In this document: positions 35,143 to 51,701 of the stretch, piece by piece | Layout: each line of letters opens with the position of its first letter | Numbering within the stretch: the first letter of the stretch is position 1 | Virus record (IMG/VR): IMGVR_UViG_3300049489_000540 | DNA from: a virus | Taxonomy: Duplodnaviria; Heunggongvirae; Uroviricota; Caudoviricetes | DNA length: 64,000 bases | Strand: one strand, 5' to 3' | Made by a program: the position numbers and the translations under genes | The notes under the pieces: generated by a model | Seen by the model: the letters and a program-made list of their open reading frames with translations, nothing else | What the model was told of the DNA's origin: nothing | The model's database searches: none

Positions 35143-35586
35143 ATGAGTACCATTACGGAAACCATCAACGAAATCAGCCAAGCCGCCAAGCCGCGCCAGG
35201 AAATGCGCGTCATCAAGTCGATCCAGCCAGGGCAGATGATCCGCCAAGGCGACATCTATCTCGTCTGCATCAGCGGCATGACGGACATCAAGGTGTTCGA
35301 CAACATCAAGGTCACCGTCGCTGAATACACCAAGCCCGTCAAGACCAACAAGAAGCATCACCAGCTTGTGCCTGGCTCCACCATGGGCAGCCGCCACATG
35401 GTCGATTCCAAGGTCATGATGTCGCTCAACCCCACCAACAAGAGCAGCCTCGTCGGTCCCATCTTACGCTCGGTCGAAGCGTTCGAAGTGACCCACCCCG
35501 AACACGCTCACTTCCGCATGCCCGCTGGTGAATACCTCGTCTGCTACCAGTTGAACGACAAGACGAAGGAACGGGTCAAGGACTAA
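35143..35586 (+). CDS. hypothetical protein (GC-rich)
   Basis: 147-aa ORF, ~55% GC. Confidence 0.55.
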   Translation: MSTITETINEISQAAKPRQEMRVIKSIQPGQMIRQGDIYLVCISGMTDIKVFDNIKVTVAEYTKPVKTNKKHHQLVPGSTMGSRHMVDSKVMMSLNPTNKSSLVGPILRSVEAFEVTHPEHAHFRMPAGEYLVCYQLNDKTKERVKD

Positions 35587-35625: not shown

Positions 35626-36540
35626 ATGATCCAGAAGCTGACCGTTGAGCAAATCAACTTGTTCCCCCATTATGTTGAAAAGTGGACCAAGCACGGCTAC
35701 GACACTTCACCACTTGATCCCGTAGCCGTGAAGTCAGCTATCGAAAAGCTGTACACATGCGGCGGCTTGAAGCCACCCGAAAAGATTGTGTTGTGTCGCG
35801 GTCCAATCGAAGCGATCCTCACCGTCAACATGTACTTCTTCAAGAAGGAAAATCCGAAGGCGACGAAGAAGGAAATCATCGCTTTCGCCAAGAAAAACAG
35901 CGTATTCACATCATGTGGCTATGGAAGCTTCGACGCTAGCTGGGTCAGCTTCTATGATTTCTTCCAGAACGAAACCGATATCGGCAATCTGGATATCATC
36001 AATGGTATCAAGGAAACCACGCTTGCGTGTGGCTGGTATTGGGCATATTCTGATATCTGCTTCGTCAGCGAAAAGCCGTACATTCTCAAGGTCAATGATG
36101 TGAATATGCTGCATTGCGAAGATGGTCCAGCCCTGGCATATCACGACGGCACCGAATTGTATTTTTACAACGGTGTTATGATGGACAAGGAAACCATCTG
36201 CAATCACGCTTCGATCACGCCCGAGTCGATCAACAACACCGACAACGAAGAACAGAAGCGCATCAAGATCGAAATCTACGGCGTCAACAAGTACCTCGAA
36301 GATATCAAGGCTGATGTGATCGACATGGATATGGTCAAGATCAACAGCTACGACAAGGACTCCGACGCCATTCCTCGCGCACTGATCAAGGACAAGGACG
36401 GCAACCACTACCTCGTCGGCACGGACGGATCCACGGAACGCACGTACTACATGAACGTGCCGAACACCGTCAAGACTTGTGCCGCAGCCCACAACGCTAT
36501 CGCACCGCTTAAAGAGAGCAACTGCATAGCCTCGTCGTAG
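35626..36540 (+). CDS. hypothetical protein (GC-rich)
   Basis: 304-aa ORF. Confidence 0.55.
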   Translation: MIQKLTVEQINLFPHYVEKWTKHGYDTSPLDPVAVKSAIEKLYTCGGLKPPEKIVLCRGPIEAILTVNMYFFKKENPKATKKEIIAFAKKNSVFTSCGYGSFDASWVSFYDFFQNETDIGNLDIINGIKETTLACGWYWAYSDICFVSEKPYILKVNDVNMLHCEDGPALAYHDGTELYFYNGVMMDKETICNHASITPESINNTDNEEQKRIKIEIYGVNKYLEDIKADVIDMDMVKINSYDKDSDAIPRALIKDKDGNHYLVGTDGSTERTYYMNVPNTVKTCAAAHNAIAPLKESNCIASS

Positions 36541-36547: not shown

Positions 36548-36817
36548 ATGAAACGCAAAAAATGCTTTCAGAACCGTCTCTGTGATGCTAGTGTCATGGA
36601 GACGGTTTATACAAAACAACTTGATAGCTGTTATGCGAAAAGGCATGATGCTGGATATATTGCTTGGATCCCAGCGAGAGATAATATTTTACACAATGTT
36701 GGAACAAATCTATGGGAAAATATCGCAGAACATATACGCAATAAAGTTTCAGCACATATACTAAAGGATATATACACAAAGTCACAGCTTGAAGCAGCTT
36801 ACGGTAACTTATTATGA
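36548..36817 (+). CDS. family-2 mini-protein (divergent body, conserved C-terminal helix)
   Basis: ends ...TKSQLEAAYGNLL; ATGA overlap with next gene. Confidence 0.6.
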   Translation: MKRKKCFQNRLCDASVMETVYTKQLDSCYAKRHDAGYIAWIPARDNILHNVGTNLWENIAEHIRNKVSAHILKDIYTKSQLEAAYGNLL

Positions 36818-37062
36818 TGATAGTGAGCGATAATGTTTGGTGTAAAATAGCACACGATATTTCGCTTCGTCTTGCTGATATTTTATCAAAAAGGGATATT
36901 GAACATTCTGCTCAATACGATGTTATTAATAATGTCAGGACATTGGTTCATAACAATGTTATAGATAATGTTAAAGACCATGTTAGTACATATGCCAGTT
37001 GTTACACAAAACCAACCAGATCACAGCTTGAAGCAGCTTACAAGGTCTTGGGGCAGATATGA
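36814..37062 (+). CDS. family-2 mini-protein
   Basis: V-x-x-N/H tetrapeptide repeats; ends TRSQLEAAYKVLGQI; ATGA overlap. Confidence 0.65.
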   Translation: MMIVSDNVWCKIAHDISLRLADILSKRDIEHSAQYDVINNVRTLVHNNVIDNVKDHVSTYASCYTKPTRSQLEAAYKVLGQI

Positions 37063-37313
37063 AACTTGTTAGCGTTTATGAAGATGTTAGTGCGAATGTT
37101 TACCAGAATGTCATGACCGCTGTCTGGGATAATATCAGGACTAATGTCAAGGATAATGTCTGGAATACTGTCAGAAATAATGTCTGGAATAATATCTGGA
37201 ATAATATCTGGAATAATACCAAGATTAATGTTGAGGATAATGTCAGGAATACTATCAGAAATGATGTCGTTGCTGATTCGCAGCTTGAAGCAGCTTACGG
37301 TAACTTGTTGTAG
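37059..37313 (+). CDS. family-2 mini-protein
   Basis: VWDNIRTNVKDNVWNTVRNNVWNNIWNNIWNN tetrapeptide repeats; ends DSQLEAAYGNLL. Confidence 0.65.
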   Translation: MKLVSVYEDVSANVYQNVMTAVWDNIRTNVKDNVWNTVRNNVWNNIWNNIWNNTKINVEDNVRNTIRNDVVADSQLEAAYGNLL

Positions 37314-37627
37314 CTCGATCGCGTCTTAAGATACATGATCACCAATAGACCAAGAGCCATTGGTGTAGAAAGCCACCATGGCATCCAATTGTTGCTGATG
37401 ATTTGGATATATTGTTCTTTACCAATAATATCTTGATTTATACTTATTGCGAGTATTCCCACAATTGTTCCAGCATCAAATCCTCGCATGTAGTCTTCTT
37501 GTACTTTTGCGGCTTTGAAGAAGAAATGTCGAAGAATAACAAATATCACAAGAAGTGTTACTATATACATATTATCACTCCTTCGGCTTTTCGACTGATG
37601 CTTTTGGTGTGTATGGCATGATGCCAC
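37295..37627 (-). CDS. small integral membrane protein
   Basis: 110 aa with 3 hydrophobic segments. Confidence 0.45.
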   Translation of the reverse strand: MASCHTHQKHQSKSRRSDNMYIVTLLVIFVILRHFFFKAAKVQEDYMRGFDAGTIVGILAISINQDIIGKEQYIQIISNNWMPWWLSTPMALGLLVIMYLKTRSSYNKLP

Positions 37628-37850
37628 CAGCGGAAGTCATCAAGAATTGCTGTCCTTGTGGATCAGTTAAAAGATATACTTTAGGAGCAGCCACCTTTGG
37701 AATAAGGTCAGTTGTGCATGACCAATCAGGCTGGATTGGTTTTGTTTGCGTTGTTGGTTCTCCTTGCAACATTAATGCCGAAAGGATAACCACGACACAT
37801 GCAGCGACAACGCCAATGGCAATCGCAGCGTCTTTTGTAATTAATGTCAT
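37575..37850 (-). CDS. single-TM protein, paralog of 44091..44369
   Basis: N-terminal TM AIAIGVVAACVVVILSAL; shared C-terminal motif GQQFLM...MPYTPKA versus GQQFMV...LPYTVPA. Confidence 0.5.
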   Translation of the reverse strand: MTLITKDAAIAIGVVAACVVVILSALMLQGEPTTQTKPIQPDWSCTTDLIPKVAAPKVYLLTDPQGQQFLMTSAGGIMPYTPKASVEKPKE

Positions 37851-38958: not shown

Positions 38959-38997
38959 AAGCAGCTATCCTATACCCTATATGCAGTTTTTCAACAA

Positions 38998-39354: not shown

Positions 39355-39667
39355 ATTTAGGTCCAAATAGCACTTCGACATGCGCTTTCGCCTCTTCAAT
39401 CGAAGTAAAAAATTTCTGCACAGGAGGACTCATATCAACATGATATTTACTGTCATCGGTTATTGATTGCCGTATGGTAGCTAAACAGATACCGTTGATC
39501 ATATATTTTGTGTACCAACTGAAAATTGCTCTTGGTGGCTGTGCAGCATCTTCCCATCGCGGAACCAATCGTTGTAGTGCTTCAACTTTAGCTTCCGATA
39601 CTGCAAGCTGCTCTTGCAGTTCTTCAATGTGCTGTTCTAGGTCCAACACATAACTCACAAAACACAT
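39344..39667 (-). CDS. family-1 protein
   Basis: N-term MCFVSYVLDLEQHIEELQEQLAVSEAKVEALQRL. Confidence 0.65.
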   Translation of the reverse strand: MCFVSYVLDLEQHIEELQEQLAVSEAKVEALQRLVPRWEDAAQPPRAIFSWYTKYMINGICLATIRQSITDDSKYHVDMSPPVQKFFTSIEEAKAHVEVLFGPKYAA

Positions 39668-40062
39668 CCTTTGAATAACACGATTTCTTTAAATGTTTCT
39701 TGCATGTACACGGTCCCATCTTCATCTTTTGCCACGCGAGTAAACCCTTGAACACGGATACACGCATGTGCAATCATGAATCCTTGTTGTATGTTTTCTG
39801 CATGCGTCACAAACATATACCATGGGAGATAGTTTGGCAATTCTGGCATATCAACTGTAAATTTACGCTTAATAAGATCATGGGCTACGGATCTTGTTAT
39901 CTCTTCACGCAATCCTGTTATTCCATGTTCTTTGGTGTAATTAATATGAAGTTCGTAGTAATACCGTGGTCTATGCCACAGCCAATCATTGGTTGCTTGC
40001 TCTTTAGCAAGCAACTCTTGTAGCTGCTCAATATGCTCTTCAAGTTGCTTCGAGTAGCTCAT
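39655..40062 (-). CDS. family-1 protein
   Basis: N-term MSYSKQLEEHIEQLQELLAKEQATNDWLW. Confidence 0.65.
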   Translation of the reverse strand: MSYSKQLEEHIEQLQELLAKEQATNDWLWHRPRYYYELHINYTKEHGITGLREEITRSVAHDLIKRKFTVDMPELPNYLPWYMFVTHAENIQQGFMIAHACIRVQGFTRVAKDEDGTVYMQETFKEIVLFKGCVL

Positions 40063-40424
40063 CGGTGTAGCTCATACATAATTTTTATATTTGTTGTTTT
40101 TGCACTCATTCCGTCAAACTCGTCATGGTTATGGTAAGGAAGAGCAACCAATGTGAGCATGAATGTTCTTATATGCTTTTTTGGAAACATAGCCATGAGA
40201 AGGAAATCTATTCCATTCTCTTTAATACTTTTCAGCATGCGAGTCATATGACTTCGAACGATGAATCGCCGTTGAGATTCTTCATCCGTTTCATGAAGCA
40301 TAACATAGTAAAAGTGTAATCTTTGCCTTTCTTTCCAGGCAATGAATGCCCGAGCCTCACTAAGCAACTCTATAAGCTGCTCGTTCTGCTTTTCCAGAGA
40401 TTCAGTGTAGGCTTTAGAGTTCAC
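40059..40424 (-). CDS. family-1 protein
   Basis: N-term MNSKAYTESLEKQNEQLIELLSEARAFIAWKE; ATGA overlap. Confidence 0.65.
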   Translation of the reverse strand: MNSKAYTESLEKQNEQLIELLSEARAFIAWKERQRLHFYYVMLHETDEESQRRFIVRSHMTRMLKSIKENGIDFLLMAMFPKKHIRTFMLTLVALPYHNHDEFDGMSAKTTNIKIMYELHR

Positions 40425-40698
40425 TTGTCTCTTTATTGGTATTACGATTAGCTATACCATAACTCGCCTCTTCGCTCCGTCGATACCGCGCCAGGTACGC
40501 ACCATATAGCCGACCTCGTTCATCTGGACTGTGTGTTGATAGTTTCCGACCCTTAATACGATCCGACAATCGACACCATTCTTCGTAGGTCATCGGTGGC
40601 AATCGTTTCAACAACGGATCATTCTTACGGTATTTAACTACCTTGACCGATCCAAGTCCCCTGGTAGCTCCTACAAAGTTGTGTGAGTGTATGCCCAT
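40414..40698 (-). CDS. hypothetical basic protein
   Basis: 94-aa ORF, Arg/Lys-rich. Confidence 0.4.
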   Translation of the reverse strand: MGIHSHNFVGATRGLGSVKVVKYRKNDPLLKRLPPMTYEEWCRLSDRIKGRKLSTHSPDERGRLYGAYLARYRRSEEASYGIANRNTNKETSEL

Positions 40699-40709
40699 AA
40701 GTTATATCT

Positions 40710-41072
40710 TTATATGTATTTTTCTTTGTACTCTTTATGAACCATATCCATAGCCTTGAAAATTTTCTCCATATGTTGTTTCACTTCGTCAAATGTTCTG
40801 AAATCACTAAATTTAAACTCCCATTTATCATCCGAAAATACTTTATATAAGTCTTCCGAGTAAGAAATACAAAATTTACTACTGGCATGTTGTCGAGTCA
40901 CAGAACAGAGAATTATTGTGGACATATATAATTTTGCTTCAAATACATTGTGTCGTGGTTTTGGATTTATGAACCACTCTGGTGTCCACCTTTCGGCTAC
41001 TGCCAGGCGCTCCGTCAAATCCTCATTCCGCCTTTCTAATTCGGCTACATACTGTTGCATGGGGGTCGGCAT
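40710..41072 (-). CDS. family-1 protein
   Basis: N-term MPTPMQQYVAELERRNEDLTERLAVAERWTPEW. Confidence 0.6.
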   Translation of the reverse strand: MPTPMQQYVAELERRNEDLTERLAVAERWTPEWFINPKPRHNVFEAKLYMSTIILCSVTRQHASSKFCISYSEDLYKVFSDDKWEFKFSDFRTFDEVKQHMEKIFKAMDMVHKEYKEKYI

Positions 41073-41075
41073 ATG

Positions 41076-41348
41076 TTATTTTCCAGAACGCTGCCGCCTC
41101 GGCTTCACGGTACCCCAGCGTGTCTTGTCCCGATCCGGCAGCGTCTTTCGTCCCTTGATCGACACAAACTGCGCCTTGTCAGGAAAGTCAGCGACTCCAA
41201 GATACAAGTGCCGTATGGTATTCAACATAGGATACTTGTCCACATCAAGGTCCATATAATGCAGATACTCACATACCCGCATAAAGGCTATGAATTCCTT
41301 GGTGTCTTTACACTGAATATGCATGGTGAGCCACATGCTACATAACAC
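41076..41348 (-). CDS. hypothetical protein
   Basis: 90-aa ORF. Confidence 0.4.
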   Translation of the reverse strand: MLCSMWLTMHIQCKDTKEFIAFMRVCEYLHYMDLDVDKYPMLNTIRHLYLGVADFPDKAQFVSIKGRKTLPDRDKTRWGTVKPRRQRSGK

Positions 41349-41384
41349 ATGCCATTTTTCAAGACATATTCTAAAAACAGCAGC

Positions 41385-41412
41385 TTGACTATTTCCTAAA
41401 GCCTATTAGTAT
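41385..41412 (+). promoter_or_regulatory. sigma70-like promoter TTGACT-N16-TAGTAT upstream of the + family-2 array; near-duplicate of 43786..43813
   Basis: cttgactatttcctaaagcctattagtatcaacc versus cttgactattttttaaaacctactagtatcacc. Confidence 0.55.
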
Positions 41413-41460
41413 CAACCATGTGTCATTTTATAGGTACTGTGAATTACTCAAAGGATTGAC

Positions 41461-41742
41461 ATGAACATTGTTAAATACAATGCTTGTAGAGACATTTGCC
41501 TTTATCATGTCATGGATAGTGTTAAGAATGATGTTGGCATGCTTATGCATAACGAAATAGAACACAACATTACGAAGTTCGTTACCAGCCTCGTTTTCGA
41601 TAATATTGAAACTCACGTTGAGTCTTCCGTAGACGATAATGTATGGGAACCTGTATGGGATAGTATGTTCAGTAATGTTGTATGTAAAATATTTACGGAT
41701 TCACAGCTTGAAGCGGCATTTGCAGCACTGGAGCGGATATGA
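41461..41742 (+). CDS. family-2 mini-protein (array 2, gene 1)
   Basis: SD aaagga; V-x-x-x-V-x-x-N octad/tetrad repeats; ends DSQLEAAFAALERI; ATGA overlap. Confidence 0.65.
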   Translation: MNIVKYNACRDICLYHVMDSVKNDVGMLMHNEIEHNITKFVTSLVFDNIETHVESSVDDNVWEPVWDSMFSNVVCKIFTDSQLEAAFAALERI

Positions 41743-42005
41743 AATCCATTATTAACGATGTTTGCGATACTCTGGATAAGTTAGATAATGTTGAAGGTAT
41801 CAGAATATATATTCAGGAGCATGCTTCGGTGCGTGCATATAATCCAGTCTGGGACATTGTTCAGTTAACTGTCTGGGATAATGTCTGGGAGAATGTGTTA
41901 AACCATCTTGATGCTGAAATTACAAGCACATTTTGTCATATGAAATATAAAAGATTCACCAAATCACAGCTTCAAGCCGCTTACCAGGCACTGGAGCAGC
42001 TATGA
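41739..42005 (+). CDS. family-2 mini-protein
   Basis: ends KSQLQAAYQALEQL; ATGA overlap. Confidence 0.65.
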   Translation: MKSIINDVCDTLDKLDNVEGIRIYIQEHASVRAYNPVWDIVQLTVWDNVWENVLNHLDAEITSTFCHMKYKRFTKSQLQAAYQALEQL

Positions 42006-42253
42006 AGGATAATGTGAGGGTCCGTATATGGGTTGATGTTCGTAGCAACATCATAGATAATGTTTGGAGTATTCTCAAACGGATCATTAGGGAACATACT
42101 GGTGTTAACGTCAGAAATAGTGTATGGGATAATATTCCAGAGCGCACTACGGATGACATGGAGGGTCTTACGAAGCCACATATCATGCATCATCTATGTA
42201 AGTCAACGGACCAACAGCTTGAAGCTGCTTACTTAGCACTGGAGCGGATATGA
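42002..42253 (+). CDS. family-2 mini-protein
   Basis: ends DQQLEAAYLALERI; ATGA overlap. Confidence 0.65.
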   Translation: MKDNVRVRIWVDVRSNIIDNVWSILKRIIREHTGVNVRNSVWDNIPERTTDDMEGLTKPHIMHHLCKSTDQQLEAAYLALERI

Positions 42254-42513
42254 ACCAGAGCCATCATAGAGATATTGTGATACGCCATGAAATAAAGGAT
42301 TATGTTGGTAGTATTGTCAGAAGTAAAGTTATAAGTCGTTGTGTAGACAAAGTAAAAGCTAATACCTTGGGTAATGTGTATGCTGATGCTACATCACATA
42401 TTCGTGATAATGTTAGGAGTTTTATTGATACAAATACTATAGCTAATGTTGGAAAAAGATCATGTACAGATTCACAGCTTGAAGCAGCTTACCAGTCACT
42501 GGAGCAGATATGA
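42250..42513 (+). CDS. family-2 mini-protein
   Basis: ends DSQLEAAYQSLEQI; ATGA overlap. Confidence 0.65.
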   Translation: MNQSHHRDIVIRHEIKDYVGSIVRSKVISRCVDKVKANTLGNVYADATSHIRDNVRSFIDTNTIANVGKRSCTDSQLEAAYQSLEQI

Positions 42514-42767
42514 TCGAGGATTATATAAAAGATTCTGTCTTGGAAACTATTCGGTCAACAACCAGTAACCGTTTAGATTCTATTATCATGGATAAGGCTT
42601 ATGACATTATGGATATTGTCAGAGAGAATGTTTGGGATCATCTTGATGGCAGTATATGGTCTAATGTCGATATGAATGTTAGGAATCAAATATGTCATGT
42701 TGCCCGTTATCAGTTGTTCACTCATTCACAGCTTGAAGCAGCTTATACCGTATTGGAGCAGATATGA
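42510..42767 (+). CDS. family-2 mini-protein
   Basis: ends HSQLEAAYTVLEQI; ATGA overlap. Confidence 0.65.
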   Translation: MIEDYIKDSVLETIRSTTSNRLDSIIMDKAYDIMDIVRENVWDHLDGSIWSNVDMNVRNQICHVARYQLFTHSQLEAAYTVLEQI

Positions 42768-43015
42768 GTAATGCAAAAAATGAAGAAATTTTATGGTGTA
42801 AACTCTGGAATAAGATCAAACAACGAAGCTGGAGTGTTGTCGCAAATAGTAATAGGGTTCACAATGTTCATGCTCATATCTGGACCAATGTTGATAATAG
42901 GATTGATTCGTGGCTCATGAGACATATACGGTCGGAAGTTAAGGAGACTATTCGTGATCGTAGATATGCTGAATTGCAACTTGAGGCAGCTTACCAGGCA
43001 CTGGAGCAGATATGA
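42764..43015 (+). CDS. family-2 mini-protein
   Basis: ends ELQLEAAYQALEQI; ATGA overlap. Confidence 0.65.
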   Translation: MSNAKNEEILWCKLWNKIKQRSWSVVANSNRVHNVHAHIWTNVDNRIDSWLMRHIRSEVKETIRDRRYAELQLEAAYQALEQI

Positions 43016-43263
43016 AACGTATATATATCCAAGTCAACGAAAAGGTTTGGGATGCGGTTAAGAAAGCAACAGATAGGCATATAAAACAGACATTTAAATA
43101 TGGTGTAGATCCCGTCAGCAGGCATGTTGATGATGTTGTCTACGATAATGTTTGGAATAATGTCTTGATGCATATTCGTATACGAGTAAACCATTCCAAC
43201 ATACGCAGATTATATACTGATTCGCAGCTTGAAGCCGCTTATGAGTCGCTGGAGGGATTATGA
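43012..43263 (+). CDS. family-2 mini-protein
   Basis: ends DSQLEAAYESLEGL; ATGA overlap. Confidence 0.65.
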   Translation: MKRIYIQVNEKVWDAVKKATDRHIKQTFKYGVDPVSRHVDDVVYDNVWNNVLMHIRIRVNHSNIRRLYTDSQLEAAYESLEGL

Positions 43264-43505
43264 ACCGATGTGAAAATACAGCCATCAATGATGTTTGGGA
43301 TAATATCTTATACAAAGCGCGGGAAGCCGTTAGATTCAGCATCGATAATGAATTATTTGAATTTGTTGAACTTCATATCGATATGAGAGTCCACAGTAGT
43401 GTGTGGAGTAACATCGGTGCCCCGACTTTTAACATGAATTTTAAACATATAATATGCACAGATTCGCAGCTTGAAGCCGCTTACCAGGCACTGGAGCAGT
43501 TATGA
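43260..43505 (+). CDS. family-2 mini-protein
   Basis: ends DSQLEAAYQALEQL; ATGA overlap. Confidence 0.65.
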   Translation: MNRCENTAINDVWDNILYKAREAVRFSIDNELFEFVELHIDMRVHSSVWSNIGAPTFNMNFKHIICTDSQLEAAYQALEQL

Positions 43506-43789
43506 TACTGGATGATATTTTCGCGGCTACTACGAATACTTCTGAGGGTACAATTAGACATGGTGTTGCGTCCATTGCCAAGACGAGAATCAAAGATAAT
43601 GTCGATGAGAATGATTATTGGAGCGTGTGGAACAGTGTGTTGGTTAGTAGTAGGAGTAATGTTATGGATAATGTCAATGAACATATCGCTAATAATACTT
43701 TGCGCAAATTCAAATACTTTTTCAGAGATGCGTCAATTACTGATTCGCAGCTTGAGGCTGCATATGCTGCTTTAAAAACTACAACTTGA
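43502..43789 (+). CDS. family-2 mini-protein (last of array; modified C-terminus)
   Basis: ends DSQLEAAYAALKTTT; stop overlaps the duplicated promoter. Confidence 0.6.
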   Translation: MILDDIFAATTNTSEGTIRHGVASIAKTRIKDNVDENDYWSVWNSVLVSSRSNVMDNVNEHIANNTLRKFKYFFRDASITDSQLEAAYAALKTTT

Positions 43790-43813
43790 CTATTTTTTAA
43801 AACCTACTAGTAT
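43786..43813 (+). promoter_or_regulatory. sigma70-like promoter TTGACT-N16-TAGTAT (duplicate of 41385..41412)
   Basis: -10 ends 10 nt before the ATG at 43824, so a near-leaderless transcript. Confidence 0.5.
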
Positions 43814-43823
43814 CACCAGTGTA

Positions 43824-43985
43824 TGACGCTTATCATTAGCACTATCATCGCCTTTATTCTCGTTCGATTCGTTATCTATCTGTTTAGCGATGATGAACAA
43901 ACATCATGCCCGACATGCGACGATGCTCGCTTTCAGAGCAACGATGACAAATGCCCTGTATGCCGCAAGCCTCGCCACCGATAAT
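43824..43985 (+). CDS. small membrane protein with C-terminal zinc ribbon, not in ORF track
   Basis: 53 aa MTLIISTIIAFILVRFVIYLFSDDEQTSCPTCDDARFQSNDDKCPVCRKPRHR. Confidence 0.4.
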
Positions 43986-44090
43986 GCTAAGGAATCTTAT
44001 GATTGGTTTCGTGCTTATTTCAGCATGCTTTATTTTTCTAATCGTCGCTATTCTCTTTATCCTATTTAAATCTGATAGGCAATAACGGGA

Positions 44091-44369
44091 TCAAAATCCC
44101 TTGTGCGGCTCGATCCCAGCGGGCACGGTATATGGCAGCACAACCACGCCCTGCGCCGTTCGCACGACCATGAATTGCTGCCCATAAGCATCAGCAATAA
44201 CCGTGACGAGGAAGTTGAATCCTACCTTATCATCTGAAATGATTTTGAATGCTGATGGGGCTACTTCAACGGGAGCTTCTGGTTTAGATGGGCTAAAAAT
44301 CATATAAATCCAAAAGATAACCACCGACACTATCGCAATCGCTATCAAACAATCAGCGAGGAACCTCAT
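44091..44369 (-). CDS. single-TM protein, paralog of 37575..37850
   Basis: N-terminal TM LIAIAIVSVVIFWIYMIF; C-term GQQFMVVRTAQGVVVLPYTVPAG. Confidence 0.5.
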   Translation of the reverse strand: MRFLADCLIAIAIVSVVIFWIYMIFSPSKPEAPVEVAPSAFKIISDDKVGFNFLVTVIADAYGQQFMVVRTAQGVVVLPYTVPAGIEPHKGF

Positions 44370-44419
44370 AGTTTATTTCTCCGTGCATATTATAGTTGTA
44401 TATGTATAAAGTCAATGGT

Positions 44420-44674
44420 CTACGGTGACTCTTCCATAACTCTGTAAGCTGCTTGAAGTTGTGATTCTGTAAATGATGCGTATTCGAAATGAGCAATAGT
44501 AATAGCTCTAATGTTCCATCCAACATTATTCCAAACATTAATTCCAGTATTATCATCTATATGATCTCCGACTAAAATCCAATCATCCTCACCGACATGA
44601 GTTCTGACAGCACCGTAGCTTTTAACTCTGATACTTATCCCAACATCAGGATCTACATTATGTAGGATTTTCAT
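44420..44674 (-). CDS. family-2 mini-protein (minus array, last gene)
   Basis: ends ESQLQAAYRVMEESP. Confidence 0.6.
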   Translation of the reverse strand: MKILHNVDPDVGISIRVKSYGAVRTHVGEDDWILVGDHIDDNTGINVWNNVGWNIRAITIAHFEYASFTESQLQAAYRVMEESP

Positions 44675-44922
44675 ATCCGCTCAGTCGCTTCATAAGATGC
44701 TCGAAGCTGTGAATCAGTGAACGATGTATATCCGACAGTATCATGAACATTATTCCAGACATTGCGTTTGATATTAATCCATATATTATCATGAATATTA
44801 GCTCTGATATAAGCTCCGACATAAGTTAATGCAATAGTTTCAGCACCACGCCCGATAATACCATGTGCATTGCTCCATATATCAGCCTTGACAGTTTCCA
44901 AGACACTATTTTTAACTCTCAT
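44671..44922 (-). CDS. family-2 mini-protein
   Basis: ends DSQLRASYEATERI; ATGA overlap. Confidence 0.65.
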   Translation of the reverse strand: MRVKNSVLETVKADIWSNAHGIIGRGAETIALTYVGAYIRANIHDNIWINIKRNVWNNVHDTVGYTSFTDSQLRASYEATERI

Positions 44923-45158
44923 ATCCGCTCCAATGCTTCAAATGCCGCTTCAAGTTGTGATTCGACATTCTTTTTACTAATGAATGTAGACGAAACCACA
45001 TGTCCGATATTGCGTCTGACATGATCTATGACATTAGCACTGACATTATTAAATATATTATTCGTGACAATGTGCATGATGTCAGCACCAACATGATTCT
45101 CGGCATTATCAAAGCCATTTTGTAAGATCCGGTTTTTGACAAGATTCCTGACATTCAT
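44919..45158 (-). CDS. family-2 mini-protein
   Basis: ends VESQLEAAFEALERI; ATGA overlap. Confidence 0.65.
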   Translation of the reverse strand: MNVRNLVKNRILQNGFDNAENHVGADIMHIVTNNIFNNVSANVIDHVRRNIGHVVSSTFISKKNVESQLEAAFEALERI

Positions 45159-45394
45159 ATCTGCTCCAATGCTGCATAAGCACCTTCAAGCTGCGAATTG
45201 GTACATGAATTTCTTTTAAACCTAGTCTTGACCGTATCTCTAACATTCATATAGAAATTGGTTCTGACATTGGCTCTGACATGAAACCAGACCTTACCTT
45301 GAAGATTATTTCTGACATTATTCTTGATATAAGACCATGTACTGTCTCTGACATCACTTCTAATATCTTTTGTAATACCTAGCATAATACTCAT
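45155..45394 (-). CDS. family-2 mini-protein
   Basis: ends TNSQLEGAYAALEQI; ATGA overlap. Confidence 0.65.
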   Translation of the reverse strand: MSIMLGITKDIRSDVRDSTWSYIKNNVRNNLQGKVWFHVRANVRTNFYMNVRDTVKTRFKRNSCTNSQLEGAYAALEQI

Positions 45395-45672
45395 ATTTTC
45401 TCCATTGCTGCATACGCTGCTTCAAGCTGCGAATACATGTGTGGTAGTCCGCGTCCGTAGTTGAATCTATTTCTGACATCCTCCCAAACACGATCACCCA
45501 CATTAGCCCATACATTGACTCTGACAGTATTTCTAACATTCATAAAAATAAGAGCAATATTACCATTATTATTTTTATCTATACAAATATCAGCTTTATA
45601 TCGGGCAAGCTTTAAGACAGTATAATCGACACTACCCCAAATATTATCCCAGACATATTCATCTGTACTCAT
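45391..45672 (-). CDS. family-2 mini-protein
   Basis: ends MYSQLEAAYAAMEKI; ATGA overlap. Confidence 0.65.
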   Translation of the reverse strand: MSTDEYVWDNIWGSVDYTVLKLARYKADICIDKNNNGNIALIFMNVRNTVRVNVWANVGDRVWEDVRNRFNYGRGLPHMYSQLEAAYAAMEKI

Positions 45673-45914
45673 ATCCGCTCCAATGCTGCATAAGCGGCTT
45701 CAAGTTGCGAATCATCATGTAGTGATTTGAATGCGAAATTATCTACAGTATCATAATAAACATGACTACCGACATTAGCCCATACGGTATCTCTGACAGT
45801 ATTTCTGATATTAATATAAACATCATTAACATATTCACACTTATCAGCTTTAGATCGAGCAACACCAAAGACATTATCTCTGACATCTTTCCAGCAATTA
45901 TGTCCAAACATCAT
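45669..45914 (-). CDS. family-2 mini-protein
   Basis: ends DDSQLEAAYAALERI; ATGA overlap. Confidence 0.65.
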   Translation of the reverse strand: MMFGHNCWKDVRDNVFGVARSKADKCEYVNDVYINIRNTVRDTVWANVGSHVYYDTVDNFAFKSLHDDSQLEAAYAALERI

Positions 45915-46162
45915 AGCTGCTCCAGTGCTTCGTAAGCTGCTTCAAGCTGCTGGTTTGTATATACTTTACGAATAGTATAACTTTTAACATACATTCTGGC
46001 ATTACTCCTGACATTATCGGAGACATTGGTACTGACAAATGCTAAAATATAATCCACAGCATCGGCTCTGACGCCAATCTCAACATTACTCGCAGAATTT
46101 ATCCTGGCTTGAGCCTTAATACTATCCCAGACATAAGCCAAAACAGATTTATCTACTCTCAT
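45911..46162 (-). CDS. family-2 mini-protein
   Basis: ends NQQLEAAYEALEQL; ATGA overlap. Confidence 0.65.
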   Translation of the reverse strand: MRVDKSVLAYVWDSIKAQARINSASNVEIGVRADAVDYILAFVSTNVSDNVRSNARMYVKSYTIRKVYTNQQLEAAYEALEQL

Positions 46163-46476
46163 ATTTGCTCCAGTGACTTGTAAGCGGCTTCAATCTGCGA
46201 ATCACATTCACATTCAATTTTATATTCAAGATTGGTGTCAACATGTTTAGCCACATGAGCATAAATGTGAGCCTCAACACCAAGCCAAACATTTCTTTCA
46301 ACACGCTCCCAAATATTACTCTCAACAAGGTTGAAGATAGATAGCTTGGTTTGTTTAAAAACAACAGCCTTAGCGGTATGTCCAATGTCAGACCAGACAT
46401 TGACCCGAACATCGTTACGGACAACATGCATGTTGCTACACCTATCGTTGCATTTAAGCTTACGAGTATTCTTCAA
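46159..46476 (-). CDS. family-2 mini-protein (true start may be the internal Met at 46431)
   Basis: ends CDSQIEAAYKSLEQI; NVWxxV repeats. Confidence 0.6.
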   Translation of the reverse strand: MKNTRKLKCNDRCSNMHVVRNDVRVNVWSDIGHTAKAVVFKQTKLSIFNLVESNIWERVERNVWLGVEAHIYAHVAKHVDTNLEYKIECECDSQIEAAYKSLEQI

Positions 46477-46535
46477 AAAGTCAACAATGACTTTTTAAAG
46501 TACCTATGAATGTAAACACATGCAGCTAAAGGTGT

Positions 46536-46844
46536 TTATTCCAATGCGGCATAAGCAGCTTCGAGTTGACTTTCGATATTTGGTGTGTTGAGGAAATTAC
46601 CTCTGATATTTCCGTCAACATTATTACTGACATTTTCAATAACATTATCCCAAACATTCCTATTTACATGAATCTTAACATTATCAAAAACACGAACATT
46701 GGTATTATTCTTGACATGATTCCTGGTACGATTCTTGACACTATCCCAAACCTTTGTCATGACATCGTTCCAGACAGCATTTTTGACATGAAGCCTGGTA
46801 CTGATCTTCATGACATCGTTCCAGACAGCATTTTTGACACTCAT
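46536..46844 (-). CDS. family-2 mini-protein (first gene of minus array; internal 31-nt duplication)
   Basis: ends IESQLEAAYAALE; the VKNAVWNDVM segment appears twice because of the direct repeat catgacatcgttccagacagcatttttgaca; ATGA overlap with the regulator gene. Confidence 0.6.
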   Translation of the reverse strand: MSVKNAVWNDVMKISTRLHVKNAVWNDVMTKVWDSVKNRTRNHVKNNTNVRVFDNVKIHVNRNVWDNVIENVSNNVDGNIRGNFLNTPNIESQLEAAYAALE

Positions 46845-47749
46845 ATCTGCTCACCTTCGACTTCGCGGACATAGGGAATGAGGTCGGGATGCCGCTTACG
46901 CCACCCATACACCAGCGCATGGAAACTCTGTATTTTATCTTCCTTACCAAACGACCTGGCAATATCTGAAATGGATTCACCATTGCGCATGCGCCGACCA
47001 ATATTCTCTGGTGTATATCCTTCGGGGCGAACCCAGCCATATGGCTGACGCTTCGGCATATCAATGCCACGCTTCCGTAAACGGTTCACATGTTGTATGG
47101 CACTACCGATAGAACATTTCATTGCCAGAGCGATTTCTTCGTAGGTCTTGCCTTCATGCCACAGTGCGATCAATCGCTTCTCACGACTAATGGTGCTGAT
47201 TCCTCTGGTCGCCATGCGATACCGAATACGATCAAATTTTACACCCAATGTTTCACGCATGAGAGTTGATTTGTTTGGATCATCGTCCACACACAAATAC
47301 TCCAATCGACGCTTCAATTCTTCCACGCCGATATGCAGCCGCGCACAGACTTCCTTCACAGCAGCTTCACCTTTCTCTCGCTGCCGCTCGACGAACAGAT
47401 CCTTCACATTCATGTCGAATATGCCGCGCAATTCACCAGCCAAGTATCGTGTCAGACCAGCAGGAGCAGGATCTTTCACATGCTCTCGCAATTGATCCTC
47501 AGTCATACCCAGCATCTTGCAGCATCCTTGGACTCGCTTTTCGTTTTGAAATTCCCGCTTGTCCATGAGCCTGGCTGTCTCGTCGGACAGAAAACCATAT
47601 GCTCGTTGTAATGCATGAAAGGTAGCACAGTCGATACCTAGCCGCTGGTTGCACTTGGTCTGTAACAGTCGGATGACAGCAGATGTGTCGGCTGCTCCCG
47701 TATGAGCAGCAATCTTCCGCATCCATGTATCTTTTTTGTCTTTGTTCAT
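46841..47749 (-). CDS. DNA-binding regulator with sigma-70 region-4/LuxR-type HTH (paralog of 26229..26891), first gene of the family-2 minus-array operon
   Basis: 302 aa; HTH LIALWHEGKTYEEIALAMKCSIGSAIQHVNRLRKRG; ~50% GC; stop overlaps the ATG of 46536..46844. Confidence 0.65.
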   Translation of the reverse strand: MNKDKKDTWMRKIAAHTGAADTSAVIRLLQTKCNQRLGIDCATFHALQRAYGFLSDETARLMDKREFQNEKRVQGCCKMLGMTEDQLREHVKDPAPAGLTRYLAGELRGIFDMNVKDLFVERQREKGEAAVKEVCARLHIGVEELKRRLEYLCVDDDPNKSTLMRETLGVKFDRIRYRMATRGISTISREKRLIALWHEGKTYEEIALAMKCSIGSAIQHVNRLRKRGIDMPKRQPYGWVRPEGYTPENIGRRMRNGESISDIARSFGKEDKIQSFHALVYGWRKRHPDLIPYVREVEGEQI

Positions 47750-47770: not shown

Positions 47771-48010
47771 CTACTGAATGACTGATAGAATCTCGTTCCA
47801 CTGATTATCGGGAATTCGTAGTTGCTTTCCAGCGTGTCGTTCAATTTCTTTAACCAGTGATCGCAACAAGGACACATCGCTGTAACCTGGACCAATATCA
47901 GGATTTGCGTCATCATCGCTTTTCTTATATTTGAGAGCGACTTTGAGCATTGCTAATTCCGTAGGAGTTAGTGCATCATCGTCTTCAACTTCTCCTGCCG
48001 ACATAATCAT
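47771..48010 (-). CDS. small acidic protein
   Basis: 79-aa ORF. Confidence 0.4.
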   Translation of the reverse strand: MIMSAGEVEDDDALTPTELAMLKVALKYKKSDDDANPDIGPGYSDVSLLRSLVKEIERHAGKQLRIPDNQWNEILSVIQ

Positions 48011-48116: not shown

Positions 48117-48356
48117 ATGGCTACCAATAAGCATGAGCGGAATTACCTGAGATTTGTCGAAGCTCAACAGAACGAGGTCATCAATGAACGGAACCGATTC
48201 CAGACCCAGCTAACGCTGTCGATTTACGATCTGGAAACCATCATCTGCCTTCTGCCGCCCGGCAGACTCAGTGCCAAACTCCAAGGTGCGCTCAAGCATG
48301 CTGAACAACAGTTCAAAATACGAGATGTCGATTTCGGTGATTTGAAAGAGGACTGA
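48117..48356 (+). CDS. hypothetical small protein
   Basis: 79 aa; stop overlaps the next gene's ATG at 48356. Confidence 0.45.
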   Translation: MATNKHERNYLRFVEAQQNEVINERNRFQTQLTLSIYDLETIICLLPPGRLSAKLQGALKHAEQQFKIRDVDFGDLKED

Positions 48357-48640
48357 TGAAGTCCTATACGCAGCAGCTTGAGGAACATATTGAGCAGCTA
48401 CAACAGTCGCTTGCCAAGACGCAAGCACATTCGTTACAGTGGTATAAGGTTTCACCACGACTATACGAATTCCGTGTAGGTGCATATGCCATTGGTAAAG
48501 TCGAAAAATACAATGATCATTGGGTAGCTATGATCATTGCAAAAGGATTCAATAACGGATCGGGTGGATTCTGCGTACATCAGACGCCGGAAGCCGCCAA
48601 GATGGATGTAGAGGAAACCATATTCAGTACCATACCATGA
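48356..48640 (+). CDS. family-1 protein
   Basis: N-term MKSYTQQLEEHIEQLQQSLAKTQAHSLQWYKV. Confidence 0.65.
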   Translation: MKSYTQQLEEHIEQLQQSLAKTQAHSLQWYKVSPRLYEFRVGAYAIGKVEKYNDHWVAMIIAKGFNNGSGGFCVHQTPEAAKMDVEETIFSTIP

Positions 48641-50554: not shown

Positions 50555-50830
50555 TTATTTTTCAGTAACTATTTTATAAGCTGCTTCAAGCTGCGAATCC
50601 GTGAACAATTCATTACTAACATACCCACTGACGCAAGCCCAAACAATGGTCCCAATAATATCCCATACTCTACCTCCAATATTCCTTCGAATATTCGCAC
50701 CAACCAGATCGACAATATCGTTCTCGACACGATACATAACACAATTATACGCCATATCACCGCACTGGTTCCGCACATCACAACCAACATTAAGAACATT
50801 TACAAACACATCCGTTCGTAATTGCTTCAT
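50555..50830 (-). CDS. family-2 mini-protein
   Basis: ends FTDSQLEAAYKIVTEK. Confidence 0.6.
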   Translation of the reverse strand: MKQLRTDVFVNVLNVGCDVRNQCGDMAYNCVMYRVENDIVDLVGANIRRNIGGRVWDIIGTIVWACVSGYVSNELFTDSQLEAAYKIVTEK

Positions 50831-51102
50831 AGCTGCTCCAGTGACTCATAAGCTGCTTCAAGCTGTGAATCCGTATGTGTGTTAGCTTTGATATTATTCC
50901 AAACATGAACATAGACCCTATCCTTGACACTACGTTTGATATTGGTCAACGTATGATCCCGCATATGAGTCAAAGCATAATTCCAAACAGCAGCCTTGGA
51001 ATTACTTTTGACGGCATTCCAGCCGCTGTCCCCGACATATTTCCTGACTAATAAATGAATAGGCGCACTACAAATCATGTCTTCAATAAAGTCACTACTC
51101 AT
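50827..51102 (-). CDS. family-2 mini-protein
   Basis: ends HTDSQLEAAYESLEQL; ATGA overlap. Confidence 0.65.
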   Translation of the reverse strand: MSSDFIEDMICSAPIHLLVRKYVGDSGWNAVKSNSKAAVWNYALTHMRDHTLTNIKRSVKDRVYVHVWNNIKANTHTDSQLEAAYESLEQL

Positions 51103-51401
51103 AGCCGCTCCAATGCCATATATGCTGCTTCAAGCTGCGACTTGGTTACTCTCGCTTCCATATCTTCCACACCAATGTCCCAAATATCATCCCTGATAGC
51201 ATCAATACGCTCGGTAGCATTCCAGACGTTCTCCACAACGAGATTCCAAACAATATTCGTAACATTCTTACCAATATGACTATGGAACGTATTCTTGACT
51301 TTGCGTATAACGCCATCCTCAACGTGATCCCATATACGATCATTGACTCTATCAAGAGTACGCATGCCGTTATACATTACTGTCATCTTTAAAAAGAGCA
51401 A
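51099..51401 (-). CDS. family-2 mini-protein
   Basis: ends TKSQLEAAYMALERL; ATGA overlap. Confidence 0.65.
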   Translation of the reverse strand: MLFLKMTVMYNGMRTLDRVNDRIWDHVEDGVIRKVKNTFHSHIGKNVTNIVWNLVVENVWNATERIDAIRDDIWDIGVEDMEARVTKSQLEAAYMALERL

Positions 51402-51404: not shown

Positions 51405-51671
51405 CTATTTTCGAGGGGCTTTTCTGGCTTGCTCGTAGAGCTTATGGGTTATTTTGCCGCACTCAGACTTCAGTTCACAGTCATTGCAGCCTTGGATGTA
51501 AGCCATTTCGCCACCTTGGGGCTGCGTGCCATAGCAGTCAGGACAGGTATCAATGGTATAGTGCCGTTCGATGGGCTTGAAGTTCTTGACCGCTTGCTTG
51601 GCAAGTTTCTTCCAGCGTTTACAATGGGCAAGGATTGTGTCTGCCATGGTCGGGTTCTCCTTCCATGTCAT
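51405..51671 (-). CDS. small zinc-ribbon protein
   Basis: 88 aa; CPDCYG...CNDCELKSEC. Confidence 0.45.
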   Translation of the reverse strand: MTWKENPTMADTILAHCKRWKKLAKQAVKNFKPIERHYTIDTCPDCYGTQPQGGEMAYIQGCNDCELKSECGKITHKLYEQARKAPRK

Positions 51672-51701
51672 ACTAGCAACGACTTACTGAAAGTCAATGG
51701 T

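What the first reader, a model, noticed from the sequence alone, without database searches (positions are those of the whole stretch)
41385..46844. Convergent family-2 arrays sit in a symmetric arrangement with duplicated promoters, paralogous membrane proteins and a coupled regulator
The + array (41461-43789) is preceded and followed by near-identical promoters (41385-41412, 43786-43813; cttgactat...tagtatca). The second promoter drives a 53-aa TM plus zinc-ribbon ORF. The - array (44420-46844) starts with an HTH regulator gene (46841-47749) whose stop overlaps the first cassette ATG. Two paralogous single-TM proteins lie beside the arrays (37575-37850, 44091-44369), sharing the motif GQQF...PYT.P. 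This organisation points to a co-regulated, membrane-associated system rather than a random pile-up of duplicates.
Basis: partly seen in the sequence, partly recalled or inferred. Interest (0 to 1): 0.6.

Follow-up and report, generated by a model that had tools for sequence, protein, structure and literature searches.

The report
Phage arrays of detached repeat mini-proteins
The two facing gene arrays are real and belong to a 24-copy family of tiny helical repeat proteins that an uncultured phage encodes as separate genes, although in other organisms the same repeats sit inside one larger protein of unknown function (DUF6745); what the family does is unknown.

Summary
There are nine coupled mini-genes on each strand, a duplicated promoter block, a small membrane/zinc-ribbon ORF, an upstream gene whose stop overlaps the first cassette ATG, and two weakly related single-TM proteins.

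The arrays are half of a 24-member family; two more clusters lie at 36548-37313 and 50555-51386. Each protein is about 85 aa: degenerate four-residue repeats ([VI]-x-x-N, period 4, z=20) plus a conserved tail, SQLEAAYxALEQI.

A full HMMER scan matches the repeat part to the internal repeat insert of DUF6745 (PF20530) proteins. This phage's own DUF6745 gene (35626-36540) lacks that insert and sits directly before cluster A. A conserved 147-aa His-rich partner gene (35143-35586) lies beside it.

The trio of repeat-less DUF6745, partner and mini-gene arrays recurs in at least six other phage contigs. One 347-kb contig carries at least 62 mini-genes. The TM proteins and the HTH-like gene have no counterpart in the fetched flanks of those relatives.

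No Pfam, PHROG, PDB or literature match exists for the mini-proteins or the partner. My best reading, which is inferred, is an early-expressed library of interchangeable repeat modules acting with the DUF6745-partner pair.

The parts
35143..35586 (+). 147-aa 'partner' protein. Invariant residues include RQGD.Y, Q, G, GS.H, G, HP.HA, Q and R..D; motif-level consensus RQGDxY, QLxPGxTxGSRH, THPEHAH, RVxD. Probably a small metal-binding or enzymatic protein.
   Evidence: Homologues lie next to the DUF6745 gene in phage loci L006, L007, L009 and L019, in 7 of 8 bacterial MAG loci and in 12 of 12 IMG/VR contigs. No Pfam, PHROG or PDB match. Alignment A4.
35626..36540 (+). DUF6745 (PF20530) protein, 304 aa, lacking the tetrapeptide-repeat insert that most family members carry near residue 95.
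36548..37313 (+). Family-2 cluster A: three coupled mini-genes starting 7 nt after the DUF6745 stop.
37575..37850 (-). 91-aa single-TM protein, a weak paralogue of 44091-44369. Neighbour only, not a conserved component.
41372..41421 (+). Promoter block P1 (TTGACT-N16-TAGTAT at 41385-41412), 49 nt before the first + array ATG. An AAAGGA SD lies 8 nt before that ATG.
41461..43789 (+). Family-2 cluster B: nine mini-genes joined by ATGA overlaps.
43773..43822 (+). Promoter block P2, a copy of P1 at 80% over 50 nt. It overlaps the last codons of B9 and its stop, and it encodes B9's atypical tail ALKTTT.
43823..43984 (+). 53-aa ORF with an N-terminal TM helix plus CPxC...CPxC.
43999..44085 (+). 28-aa hydrophobic ORF with an AAGGA SD. 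A terminator-like hairpin lies inside it at 44010-44027.
44091..44369 (-). 92-aa single-TM protein with the motif GQQF...PYT.P.
44387..44415 (-). Promoter-like site TTGACT-17-TAATAT, starting 5 nt after the stop codon of the last - array gene.
44420..46431 (-). Family-2 cluster C, members 2-9, joined by ATGA overlaps.
46536..46844 (-). Family-2 cluster C, member 1 (102 aa). It is coupled to the upstream HTH-like gene and followed by a 104-nt gap.
46841..47749 (-). 302-aa protein with two weak HTH-like motifs. It ends ...GAGCAGATATGA (EQI*), like a cassette junction.
   Evidence: No homologue in phages or in related loci.
50555..51386 (-). Family-2 cluster D: three coupled mini-genes.
51670..51697 (-). 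Third exact TTGACT-N16-TAGTAT promoter. It drives a Cys-rich 88-aa ORF (51405-51671) and then cluster D.

Best explanation
The window is part of a large uncultured lytic phage. The two convergent arrays, together with two further clusters, encode 24 diverged paralogues of a small soluble helical protein.

Shown:
- Each protein is a run of degenerate four-residue repeats ([VI]-[WRK..]-[DNA..]-N) plus a conserved tail (SQLEAAYxALEQI). It is predicted to form two long helices and a C-terminal helix.
- The repeats are of the same type as the tetrapeptide-repeat insert of DUF6745 proteins.
- In this phage lineage the DUF6745 protein has no insert, and the repeats are encoded as free-standing genes beside it.
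- A 147-aa His-rich partner gene accompanies DUF6745 almost everywhere it was examined.
- The genes are chained by ATGA overlaps. The GGAG SD for each next gene is embedded in the L-E codons of the preceding tail.
- Sigma-70-type promoters precede the + array and cluster D. A near-copy of the + array's promoter sits directly after the + array, and a different promoter-like site sits directly after the - array.

Inferred:
- The arrays are early, host-RNA-polymerase-driven polycistronic operons that yield roughly equimolar sets of variants.
- The mini-proteins supply in trans the repeat module that DUF6745 proteins normally carry in cis. They would act as a library of interchangeable surfaces that work with or through the DUF6745-partner pair.
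- By analogy with other expanded phage early-gene families, the role is probably host takeover or counter-defence.
- The conserved gene junction probably serves both translational coupling and unequal recombination that expands and contracts the arrays.
- The TM proteins and the HTH-like gene are local neighbours that may be co-transcribed, not conserved components.
For: Family and repeats: 24 members in four clusters. V/I autocorrelation at lag 4 gives z=20, at lag 8 z=18 and at lag 12 z=14. The AF2 model has three helices at pLDDT 80.

Link to DUF6745: the exhaustive HMMER scan gave 709 hits. The top hits are 300-600-aa proteins matched several times over the repeat part of the profile. Ten of 10 tested carry PF20530. 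Of the long hits, 114 of 126 carry the DUF6745 N- and C-domains with the repeats inserted near position 95. Their sequences show x-V-[WRGE]-[DA]-[KQS] repeats.

Synteny: repeat-less DUF6745 genes 50-58% identical to the window's are flanked by family-2 arrays in L007 (11+12 genes), L006 (4+3), L009/L010 (5 directly downstream plus others) and L019. L026 has at least 62 mini-genes around DUF6745 and the partner. The partner gene is adjacent in 7 of 8 MAG loci and 12 of 12 IMG/VR loci.

Coupling: 18 of 19 members that are followed by an overlapping gene end in [LM]-E-x-[IL] plus ATGA, 17 of them with a GGAG SD in the tail codons; the five that are not (A3, B9, C1, C9, D3) lose this ending.

Promoters: 16 sites match TTGACN-N15-18-TANN[AT]T against 5.3 expected, many just upstream of SD+ATG. 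The P1/P2 duplication is shown. Terminator-like sites are not in excess.

Phage identity: adjacent rIIA and rIIB genes, an HNH endonuclease, a Ro-like RNA-binding protein and a tRNA-Leu.
Against: No direct evidence of interaction between the mini-proteins and DUF6745 or the partner. Profile-profile comparison finds no similarity between the tail and any part of DUF6745.

The functions of DUF6745 and the partner are unknown: no PDB fold, no PADLOC or NCBIfam hit, and no paper.

Some repeat-less DUF6745 genes have no mini-genes nearby, for example L020 and Ma-LMM01 gp174.

The HMMER match is to a low-complexity repeat. Twelve of the 126 long hits are unrelated repeat proteins, so homology of the repeats rests partly on the synteny.

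Promoter function and expression timing are consensus-based only. The conserved tail may simply be the third helix of a small bundle rather than a docking element.
Confidence: 0.5

Rival explanations
1. First reader's model. The arrays, the duplicated promoters, the paralogous single-TM proteins, the TM/zinc-ribbon ORF and the HTH gene form one co-regulated, membrane-associated system. The mini-proteins would act at or with the membrane proteins under control of the HTH protein.
For: Each of the two arrays runs, without a detectable terminator, into a promoter-like site and a small TM gene. Cluster A converges on three small TM ORFs. The HTH-like gene is translationally coupled to cassette C1. 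The two TM proteins share a significant C-terminal motif.
Against: The TM proteins, the zinc-ribbon ORF and the HTH-like gene have no homologues in the fetched DNA (up to 10 kb each side) around related arrays in five other phage contigs. L003 has no regulator gene at the equivalent place. Cluster D has no TM neighbour. The mini-proteins are hydrophilic. The HTH assignment is sub-threshold. Small TM genes are common in phage early regions (own knowledge).
Confidence: 0.12
2. Gene 'accordion' without a DUF6745 connection. A single small early gene was amplified by unequal crossing-over at its conserved junction, and the copies diverged. Each copy acts alone, for example as an inhibitor of a different host protein or defence variant. 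On this view the neighbourhood with DUF6745 reflects shared ancestry of the repeats, not joint function.
For: The roughly 45-nt junction is 80-91% identical between copies, while the gene bodies are not alignable at DNA level and average 28% identity as proteins. Array sizes differ widely between relatives: 3-12 genes per cluster, and at least 62 genes in L026. Two of the four clusters (B, C) lie 5-10 kb from the DUF6745 gene.
Against: Mini-gene arrays recur next to repeat-less DUF6745 and partner genes in seven phage contigs of at least two lineages, with different conserved junctions: QLEAAY tail, KSFDFL tail, MINTDCVE head. This suggests repeated or long-maintained linkage. Where the repeats are present in cis (L027, L028/29, L032), no arrays were found.
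Confidence: 0.25
3. Decoy model. The free-standing repeat proteins mimic the repeat insert of cellular DUF6745 proteins of the host and titrate whatever those repeats bind, so they would be anti-host factors rather than partners of the phage's own DUF6745.
For: Cellular DUF6745 proteins with near-perfect repeats are widespread, for example in Planctomycetota, Binatota and Nitrospirota. The phage copies are many and diverse.
Against: The phage keeps its own DUF6745 and partner genes next to the arrays in every related contig, which a pure decoy model does not need. The host is unknown, so whether it has DUF6745 cannot be checked.
Confidence: 0.08
4. DNA-level cassette system. The conserved junctions would be recombination sites of an integron- or shufflon-like device, and the ORFs would be secondary.
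For: The architecture is a conserved junction plus a variable roughly 200-nt body. Synonymous sites in the tail are fixed: Leu is CTT in 22 of 23 members against 21% elsewhere in the same genes. The same CTT-GAA is kept in L003, L006 and L007.
Against: All 24 units keep intact ORFs with period-4 amino-acid conservation. The junctions do not fold better than shuffles, with z from -0.9 to +1.0, so there is no attC-like hairpin. No integrase or invertase was seen among the large ORFs scanned. The two independent assemblies are 100% identical over 14.3 kb, so no rearrangement is seen.
Confidence: 0.05

Closest known systems
DUF6745 (Pfam PF20530) proteins with an internal tetrapeptide-repeat insert
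   Same: The same kind of four-residue repeat: an invariant V/I, an adjacent variable position rich in W/R/G/E, and polar D/N/A/Q/S positions. The same genomic partner (the 147-aa protein). The phage encodes a bona fide DUF6745 protein next to cluster A.
   Different: Here the repeats are not inside DUF6745. They are free-standing 79-102-aa proteins with their own conserved C-terminal helix, multiplied to 24 copies and strongly diverged. The mini-proteins contain no DUF6745 domain. DUF6745 itself has no known function or solved fold.
Multigene families and gene 'accordions' of large DNA viruses, such as the ASFV MGF families and poxvirus K3L amplification (own knowledge, not tested here)
   Same: Tandem arrays of diverging paralogues in non-structural genome regions. 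Copy number differs between relatives. An arms-race role is presumed.
   Different: This is a bacterial virus. The units are tiny, translationally coupled through 4-nt overlaps, built from 4-residue repeats, and linked to a specific two-gene module.
Integron gene-cassette arrays
   Same: Serial units made of a short conserved boundary element and a variable body.
   Different: The boundary is coding sequence (tail, SD and start). It has no attC-like hairpin. No integrase was found. All units are paralogues of one family.
Short-period repeat proteins such as pentapeptide-repeat proteins (Qnr/MfpA; own knowledge)
   Same: Very short sequence period with one or two invariant positions and variable exposed positions.
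   Different: The period is 4, not 5. The predicted structure is alpha-helical rather than a beta-helix. No sequence or fold match to any solved structure was found.

Membership tests
DUF6745 (PF20530) - membership of the mini-proteins | Presence of the roughly 200-aa DUF6745 C-terminal domain | tested here: not met
   No Pfam hit for 6 mini-proteins even at E<=1. hhalign of A1 against A3 gives probability 0.2%.
DUF6745-associated tetrapeptide repeat | Run of 4-residue repeats with an invariant aliphatic position, matched by sequence to the insert of DUF6745 proteins | tested here: met
   Period-4 z=20. The HMMER profile of the mini-proteins hits DUF6745 proteins in their repeat insert: 114 of 126 long hits.
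DUF6745 (PF20530) - membership of ORF 35626-36540 | Score above the Pfam gathering cut-off over the domain | tested here: met
   96.5 bits against a cut-off of 27, E=1.7e-27. Foldseek hit to Ma-LMM01 DUF6745 at E=1.4e-18.
DUF6745-partner two-gene module | 147-aa RQGDxY/GSRH/HPEHAH protein encoded next to the DUF6745 gene | tested here: met
   Window 35143-35586 ends 39 nt before the DUF6745 start. Adjacent in 7 of 8 MAG loci and 12 of 12 IMG/VR loci, and present in the same module (adjacent, or separated only by small genes or a mini-gene array) in four other phage loci.
Sigma-70-type promoter | -35 TTGACA-like and -10 TATAAT-like hexamers 16-18 nt apart, upstream of a gene start | tested here: met
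   TTGACT-16-TAGTAT at 41385, 43786 and 51697. The class is enriched 16 against 5.3.
Sigma-70-type promoter | Transcription actually starts there | not testable with these tools
   Needs 5'-end mapping.
Helix-turn-helix transcription regulator (ORF 46841-47749) | HTH domain above the curated threshold | tested here: inconclusive
   Five HTH-type Pfam families match, all below their cut-offs (17-20 bits against 24-28). PHROG 323 at E=9e-5.
Integron cassette array | attC-type imperfect inverted repeat at each cassette boundary, and an integrase | tested here: not met
   Junction folds have z from -0.9 to +1.0 against shuffles. No integrase among the scanned ORFs.
Known anti-phage defence or anti-defence families | Match to PADLOC, PHROG or NCBIfam models | tested here: not met
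   No PADLOC or NCBIfam family for the one mini-protein, DUF6745, TM or HTH proteins scanned. No PHROG for two mini-proteins or the partner; the partner was not scanned against PADLOC or NCBIfam.

The most novel reading that the evidence does not exclude
A split, 'programmable' protein system. A conserved effector pair (DUF6745 plus a small His-rich enzyme-like partner) would be retargeted by a genome-encoded library of dozens of interchangeable tetrapeptide-repeat adaptor proteins: 24 here, and at least 62 in a 347-kb phage. This would be a protein-level counterpart of specificity-subunit libraries, evolved by fission of an internal repeat insert and array expansion at a conserved, translationally coupled junction.
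Probability: 0.22. Interest if true: 0.8.

Novelty: new variant of a known kind. Interest (0 to 1): 0.62.

Why it matters
It gives the first context for DUF6745, a widespread family with no known function. The context has three parts: a conserved two-gene module, a hypervariable four-residue repeat, and phage lineages in which that repeat has been detached and multiplied into some of the densest paralogue arrays seen in phage genomes.

If the mini-proteins prove to be exchangeable modules for a common effector, this would be a new way for phages to diversify a function. It would also provide a compact natural scaffold (about 60 residues of 4-residue repeats) for binder engineering.

Even under the conservative reading, the arrays are a clean case of gene-family expansion in which the ribosome-binding site and stop/start overlap are written into conserved coding sequence.

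Tried and rejected
- Nucleotide and protein searches of INPHARED phages, PLSDB plasmids and E. coli genomes with the region, a mini-protein and the HTH gene gave no match. The nearest rIIA is only 29% identical.
- IMG/VR scan with the mini-protein alignment gave no confirmed relative.
Two tail DNA patterns then gave 0 hits. The source contig is evidently not in that collection.
- Pfam, PHROG, PADLOC and NCBIfam gave nothing for the mini-proteins or the TM proteins; Pfam and PHROG gave nothing for the partner.
- The idea that the conserved tail is homologous to the N-terminal LTxEQ helix of DUF6745 was rejected by hhalign.
- The idea that the + and - arrays are a mirror duplication was rejected: nearest neighbours are scattered.
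- The idea of a shared 5'-UTR motif (CATTxATAGGTACT) before B1 and C2 was not significant: 2 found against 1.7 expected.
- The idea that the L009 lipoprotein is a homologue of the GQQF TM proteins was not significant: p=0.02-0.08.
- The idea that 'family 1' co-occurs with family 2 in relatives fails: family 1 is found only in the window.
- An RNA structure at the junctions was rejected. Rfam finds only the tRNA.
- Literature searches for DUF6745, tetrapeptide repeats in phages and phage multigene arrays found nothing relevant.

Full report
**What the window is.** The window carries adjacent rIIA (9844-11991, -) and rIIB (8848-9786, -) homologues, an HNH/DUF4379 endonuclease, a Ro-like RNA-binding protein (PHROG 850), an SPFH protein and a tRNA-Leu. 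It has no nucleotide match in INPHARED phages, PLSDB plasmids or E. coli genomes, and its rIIA is at most 29% identical to any deposited phage. It is therefore part of a large uncultured phage. The protein database places it on a 91-kb JGI contig. A Logan assembly of another run (SRR35532292) is 100% identical over 14.3 kb, window 32510-46786.

The + array (41461-43789) has nine ORFs of 81-95 aa. The - array (44420-46844) has nine ORFs of 79-102 aa. All neighbours overlap by ATGA, except for one 104-nt gap after the first - cassette.

TTGACT-N16-TAGTAT occurs exactly at 41385 and at 43786. A 30-nt pattern with 26 specified bases matches only these two sites, with 0.00 expected. The similarity extends over a 50-nt block at 80%.

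The second copy overlaps the 3' end of the last + gene. That explains why this gene ends ALKTTT instead of ALEQI. It is followed 10 nt later by the ATG of a 53-aa ORF with a TM helix and two CPxC pairs.

The 302-aa gene upstream of the - array ends ...GAGCAGATATGA, overlapping the first cassette ATG. Its 'HTH' nature rests only on sub-threshold hits.

The two single-TM proteins are invisible to BLASTP. They share a C-terminal segment scoring 55 against 25 +/- 4.4 in shuffles, with 0 of 2000 shuffles reaching it.

The layout is symmetric. The - array also ends 5 nt before a TTGACT-17-TAATAT site facing a TM gene. The arrays are not mirror copies, however: mean identity is 28% and nearest neighbours are scattered over all clusters.

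**The family is larger than the finding.** A motif scan and an HMM built from the alignment find 24 members in four clusters:
- A, 36548-37313 (+, 3 genes)
- B, 41461-43789 (+, 9 genes)
- C, 44420-46844 (-, 9 genes)
- D, 50555-51386 (-, 3 genes)

A third exact TTGACT-N16-TAGTAT at 51697 (-) precedes cluster D. More generally, TTGACN-N15-18-TANN[AT]T sites are enriched at 16 against 5.3 expected, and many sit just upstream of SD+ATG. Terminator-like sites are at chance level. The sequence is thus consistent with early, host-polymerase-driven polycistronic operons. This is an inference from consensus only.

**Anatomy of a unit.** The proteins are hydrophilic, with pI from 4.5 to 10.2. V/I residues recur with period 4: z=20 at lag 4, z=18 at lag 8 and z=14 at lag 12. 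N/D follows the same period. The position after V is most often W, R or K. AlphaFold2 with the 26-sequence alignment predicts three helices (residues 2-23, 29-61 and 63-80) at mean pLDDT 80.

Only the tail is conserved: [TS]xSQLEAAYxALEQI. The last four residues largely reflect translational coupling. The L-E codons (CTG/TTG GAG) supply a GGAG SD 6-7 nt before the next ATG, and the I/L codon plus TGA forms ATGA. The five members not followed by an overlapping gene lose exactly this ending.

The junction of about 45 nt is 80-91% identical between copies, while the bodies do not align at DNA level. Within SQLEAAY the codons are fixed beyond what the amino acids require: Leu is CTT in 22 of 23 members against 21% elsewhere in the same genes, Ser is TCR in 20 of 21 against 20%, and Glu is GAA in 19 of 21 against 52%. 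CAR-CTT-GAA is also kept in the related phages L003, L006 and L007. The junctions do not fold better than shuffles. This nucleotide-level conservation remains unexplained. Homology-driven unequal recombination or gene conversion is the simplest partial explanation.

**What the repeats are.** Word-indexed search of 5.8 billion proteins found only the source contig and two short metagenome contigs. An exhaustive HMMER scan with the family profile found 709 proteins. The best are 300-600 aa and match several times over the repeat part of the profile, not the tail. Ten of 10 tested carry PF20530 DUF6745.

Of the long hits among the top 150, 114 of 126 carry both the N-terminal and C-terminal domains of DUF6745, with the repeats inserted between profile positions about 93 and 100. 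Their sequences are near-perfect x-V-[WRGE]-[DA]-[KQS] tetrapeptide runs.

The window's own DUF6745 gene (35626-36540, E=1.7e-27) has both domains but no insert. It ends 7 nt before cluster A.

**Comparative evidence.** Repeat-less 304-aa DUF6745 homologues (50-67% identity) exist on other phage-like contigs. Wherever enough flank was available, family-2 genes surround them:
- L007: 11 upstream and 12 downstream.
- L006 (a 386-kb contig): 4 upstream and 3 downstream.
- L009/L010: 5 directly downstream, plus others.
- L019: several, with a shorter KSFDFL tail.

An IMG/VR scan added L026, a 347-kb contig. There a repeat-less DUF6745 gene is flanked by at least 62 overlapping mini-genes with xQVx repeats and a conserved N-terminus, MINTDCVE. 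In that lineage the conserved element again sits at the gene junction, but on the other side of it.

A second conserved gene emerged. Window 35143-35586 encodes a 147-aa protein with invariant residues spread over the motifs RQGDxY, QLxPGxTxGSRH, THPEHAH and RVxD. Homologues lie next to the DUF6745 gene in the phage loci, in 7 of 8 bacterial MAG loci from Planctomycetota, Binatota and Nitrospirota, and in 12 of 12 IMG/VR contigs. Contigs whose DUF6745 carries the repeats in cis (L027, L028/29, L032) showed no arrays.

By contrast, the TM proteins, the zinc-ribbon ORF and the HTH-like gene have no homologue in the fetched flanks of these relatives. L003 also lacks a regulator gene between the homologue of 47771-48010 and its array.

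**Function.** Nothing known matches:
- No Pfam, PHROG, PADLOC or NCBIfam family for the mini-proteins, and no Pfam or PHROG family for the partner.
- No PDB relative by sequence.
- No PDB fold match for the mini-protein.
- Only other DUF6745 proteins in BFVD.
- No paper mentioning DUF6745.

In two Planctomycetota loci the module sits among housekeeping genes, namely an ABC-F ATPase and ThiG.

My best-supported reading is therefore structural and evolutionary. The mini-proteins are the DUF6745 repeat module released as separate genes and expanded. The mechanistic step is an inference that I rate at roughly one in three: that they act in trans with the DUF6745-partner pair as a library of alternative surfaces for host takeover or counter-defence. 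The overall confidence of 0.5 combines high confidence in the identity with low confidence in the mechanism.

The rival readings are:
- independent action after accordion-like amplification;
- decoys of host DUF6745 repeats;
- a DNA-level cassette device.

**Verdict.** The feature is a previously undescribed, expanded family tied to an uncharacterised but widespread two-gene module. It is a new variant within the known phenomenon of viral multigene arrays. Interest is moderately high, mainly because it makes DUF6745 and its hypervariable repeat experimentally approachable.

Noticed in passing
window 18264-18614, 18864-19154, 24706-25260, 31822-34015, 38336-41072, 48356-49472: A second multigene family ('family 1') with at least 16 members. 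It has the opposite design to family 2: a conserved N-terminal helix (Y[TS]xxLExHIEELQExLA) and a variable C-terminal part of 90-180 aa. It is interleaved with the family-2 clusters and has no Pfam or PHROG match. It was not found in the related loci L006, L007, L009 or L019.
   Followed up: partly
window junctions of all family-2 genes, e.g. 42469-42513; also L003, L006, L007: Synonymous codons in the tail are fixed: Q-L-E is CAR-CTT-GAA in 22 of 23 window copies, and also in three other phages. The junction has no RNA structure. A linear DNA or RNA motif, or a recombination substrate, is possible. This is unexplained.
   Followed up: partly
L026 4005-7608 and 12141-21030 (IMGVR_UViG_3300042879_006196, 347 kb): At least 62 overlapping mini-genes of 27-83 aa, with a conserved MINTDCVE start and xQVx tetrapeptide repeats. 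They flank a repeat-less DUF6745 gene and its partner. This is a larger expansion of the same idea, apparently in a separate lineage.
   Followed up: partly
L006 12303-19018 (386-kb JGI contig) and L020 1-4304: Jumbo-phage-sized contigs carrying the DUF6745 module also encode Cas-like genes nearby: Cas1 and a Cas3-like helicase in L006, and Cas12-like plus Cas3-like genes in L020. L006 also has a Tad3-family gene upstream.
   Followed up: no
window 43999-44085 (+): A 28-aa entirely hydrophobic ORF with a good SD (AAGGA), lying between the zinc-ribbon ORF and the convergent TM gene. A terminator-like hairpin (44010-44027) lies inside it.
   Followed up: no
window 37295-38002 (-): Three consecutive small TM ORFs of 91, 91 and 51 aa converge on cluster A, mirroring the TM genes between clusters B and C.
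   Followed up: partly
window 46841-46852 (-): The HTH-like gene ends with the same 12 nt (GAGCAGATATGA, EQI*) as a family-2 cassette junction. This suggests that cassette C1 was joined to it by recombination at a junction, or that the coupling signal arose by convergence.
   Followed up: no
window 51405-51671 (-): A Cys-rich 88-aa ORF (CPDC...C..C...C) is the first gene after the 51697 promoter and precedes cluster D. A 434-aa HNH/DUF4379/CapR/DUF559 endonuclease gene (51702-53006) lies immediately upstream.
   Followed up: no
L014 8699-10116 (Planctomycetota MAG): Downstream of the bacterial DUF6745-partner pair lie two paralogous proteins with long GNAxV[YSC] hexapeptide-like repeats. They are a different repeat family in the same neighbourhood.
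   Followed up: no
window 1-64000 composition: G+C content is very uneven: 36-41% in the paralogue-rich regions against 52-55% at 8-12 kb, 26-28 kb and 54-64 kb. This suggests a mosaic origin for the accessory regions.
   Followed up: no
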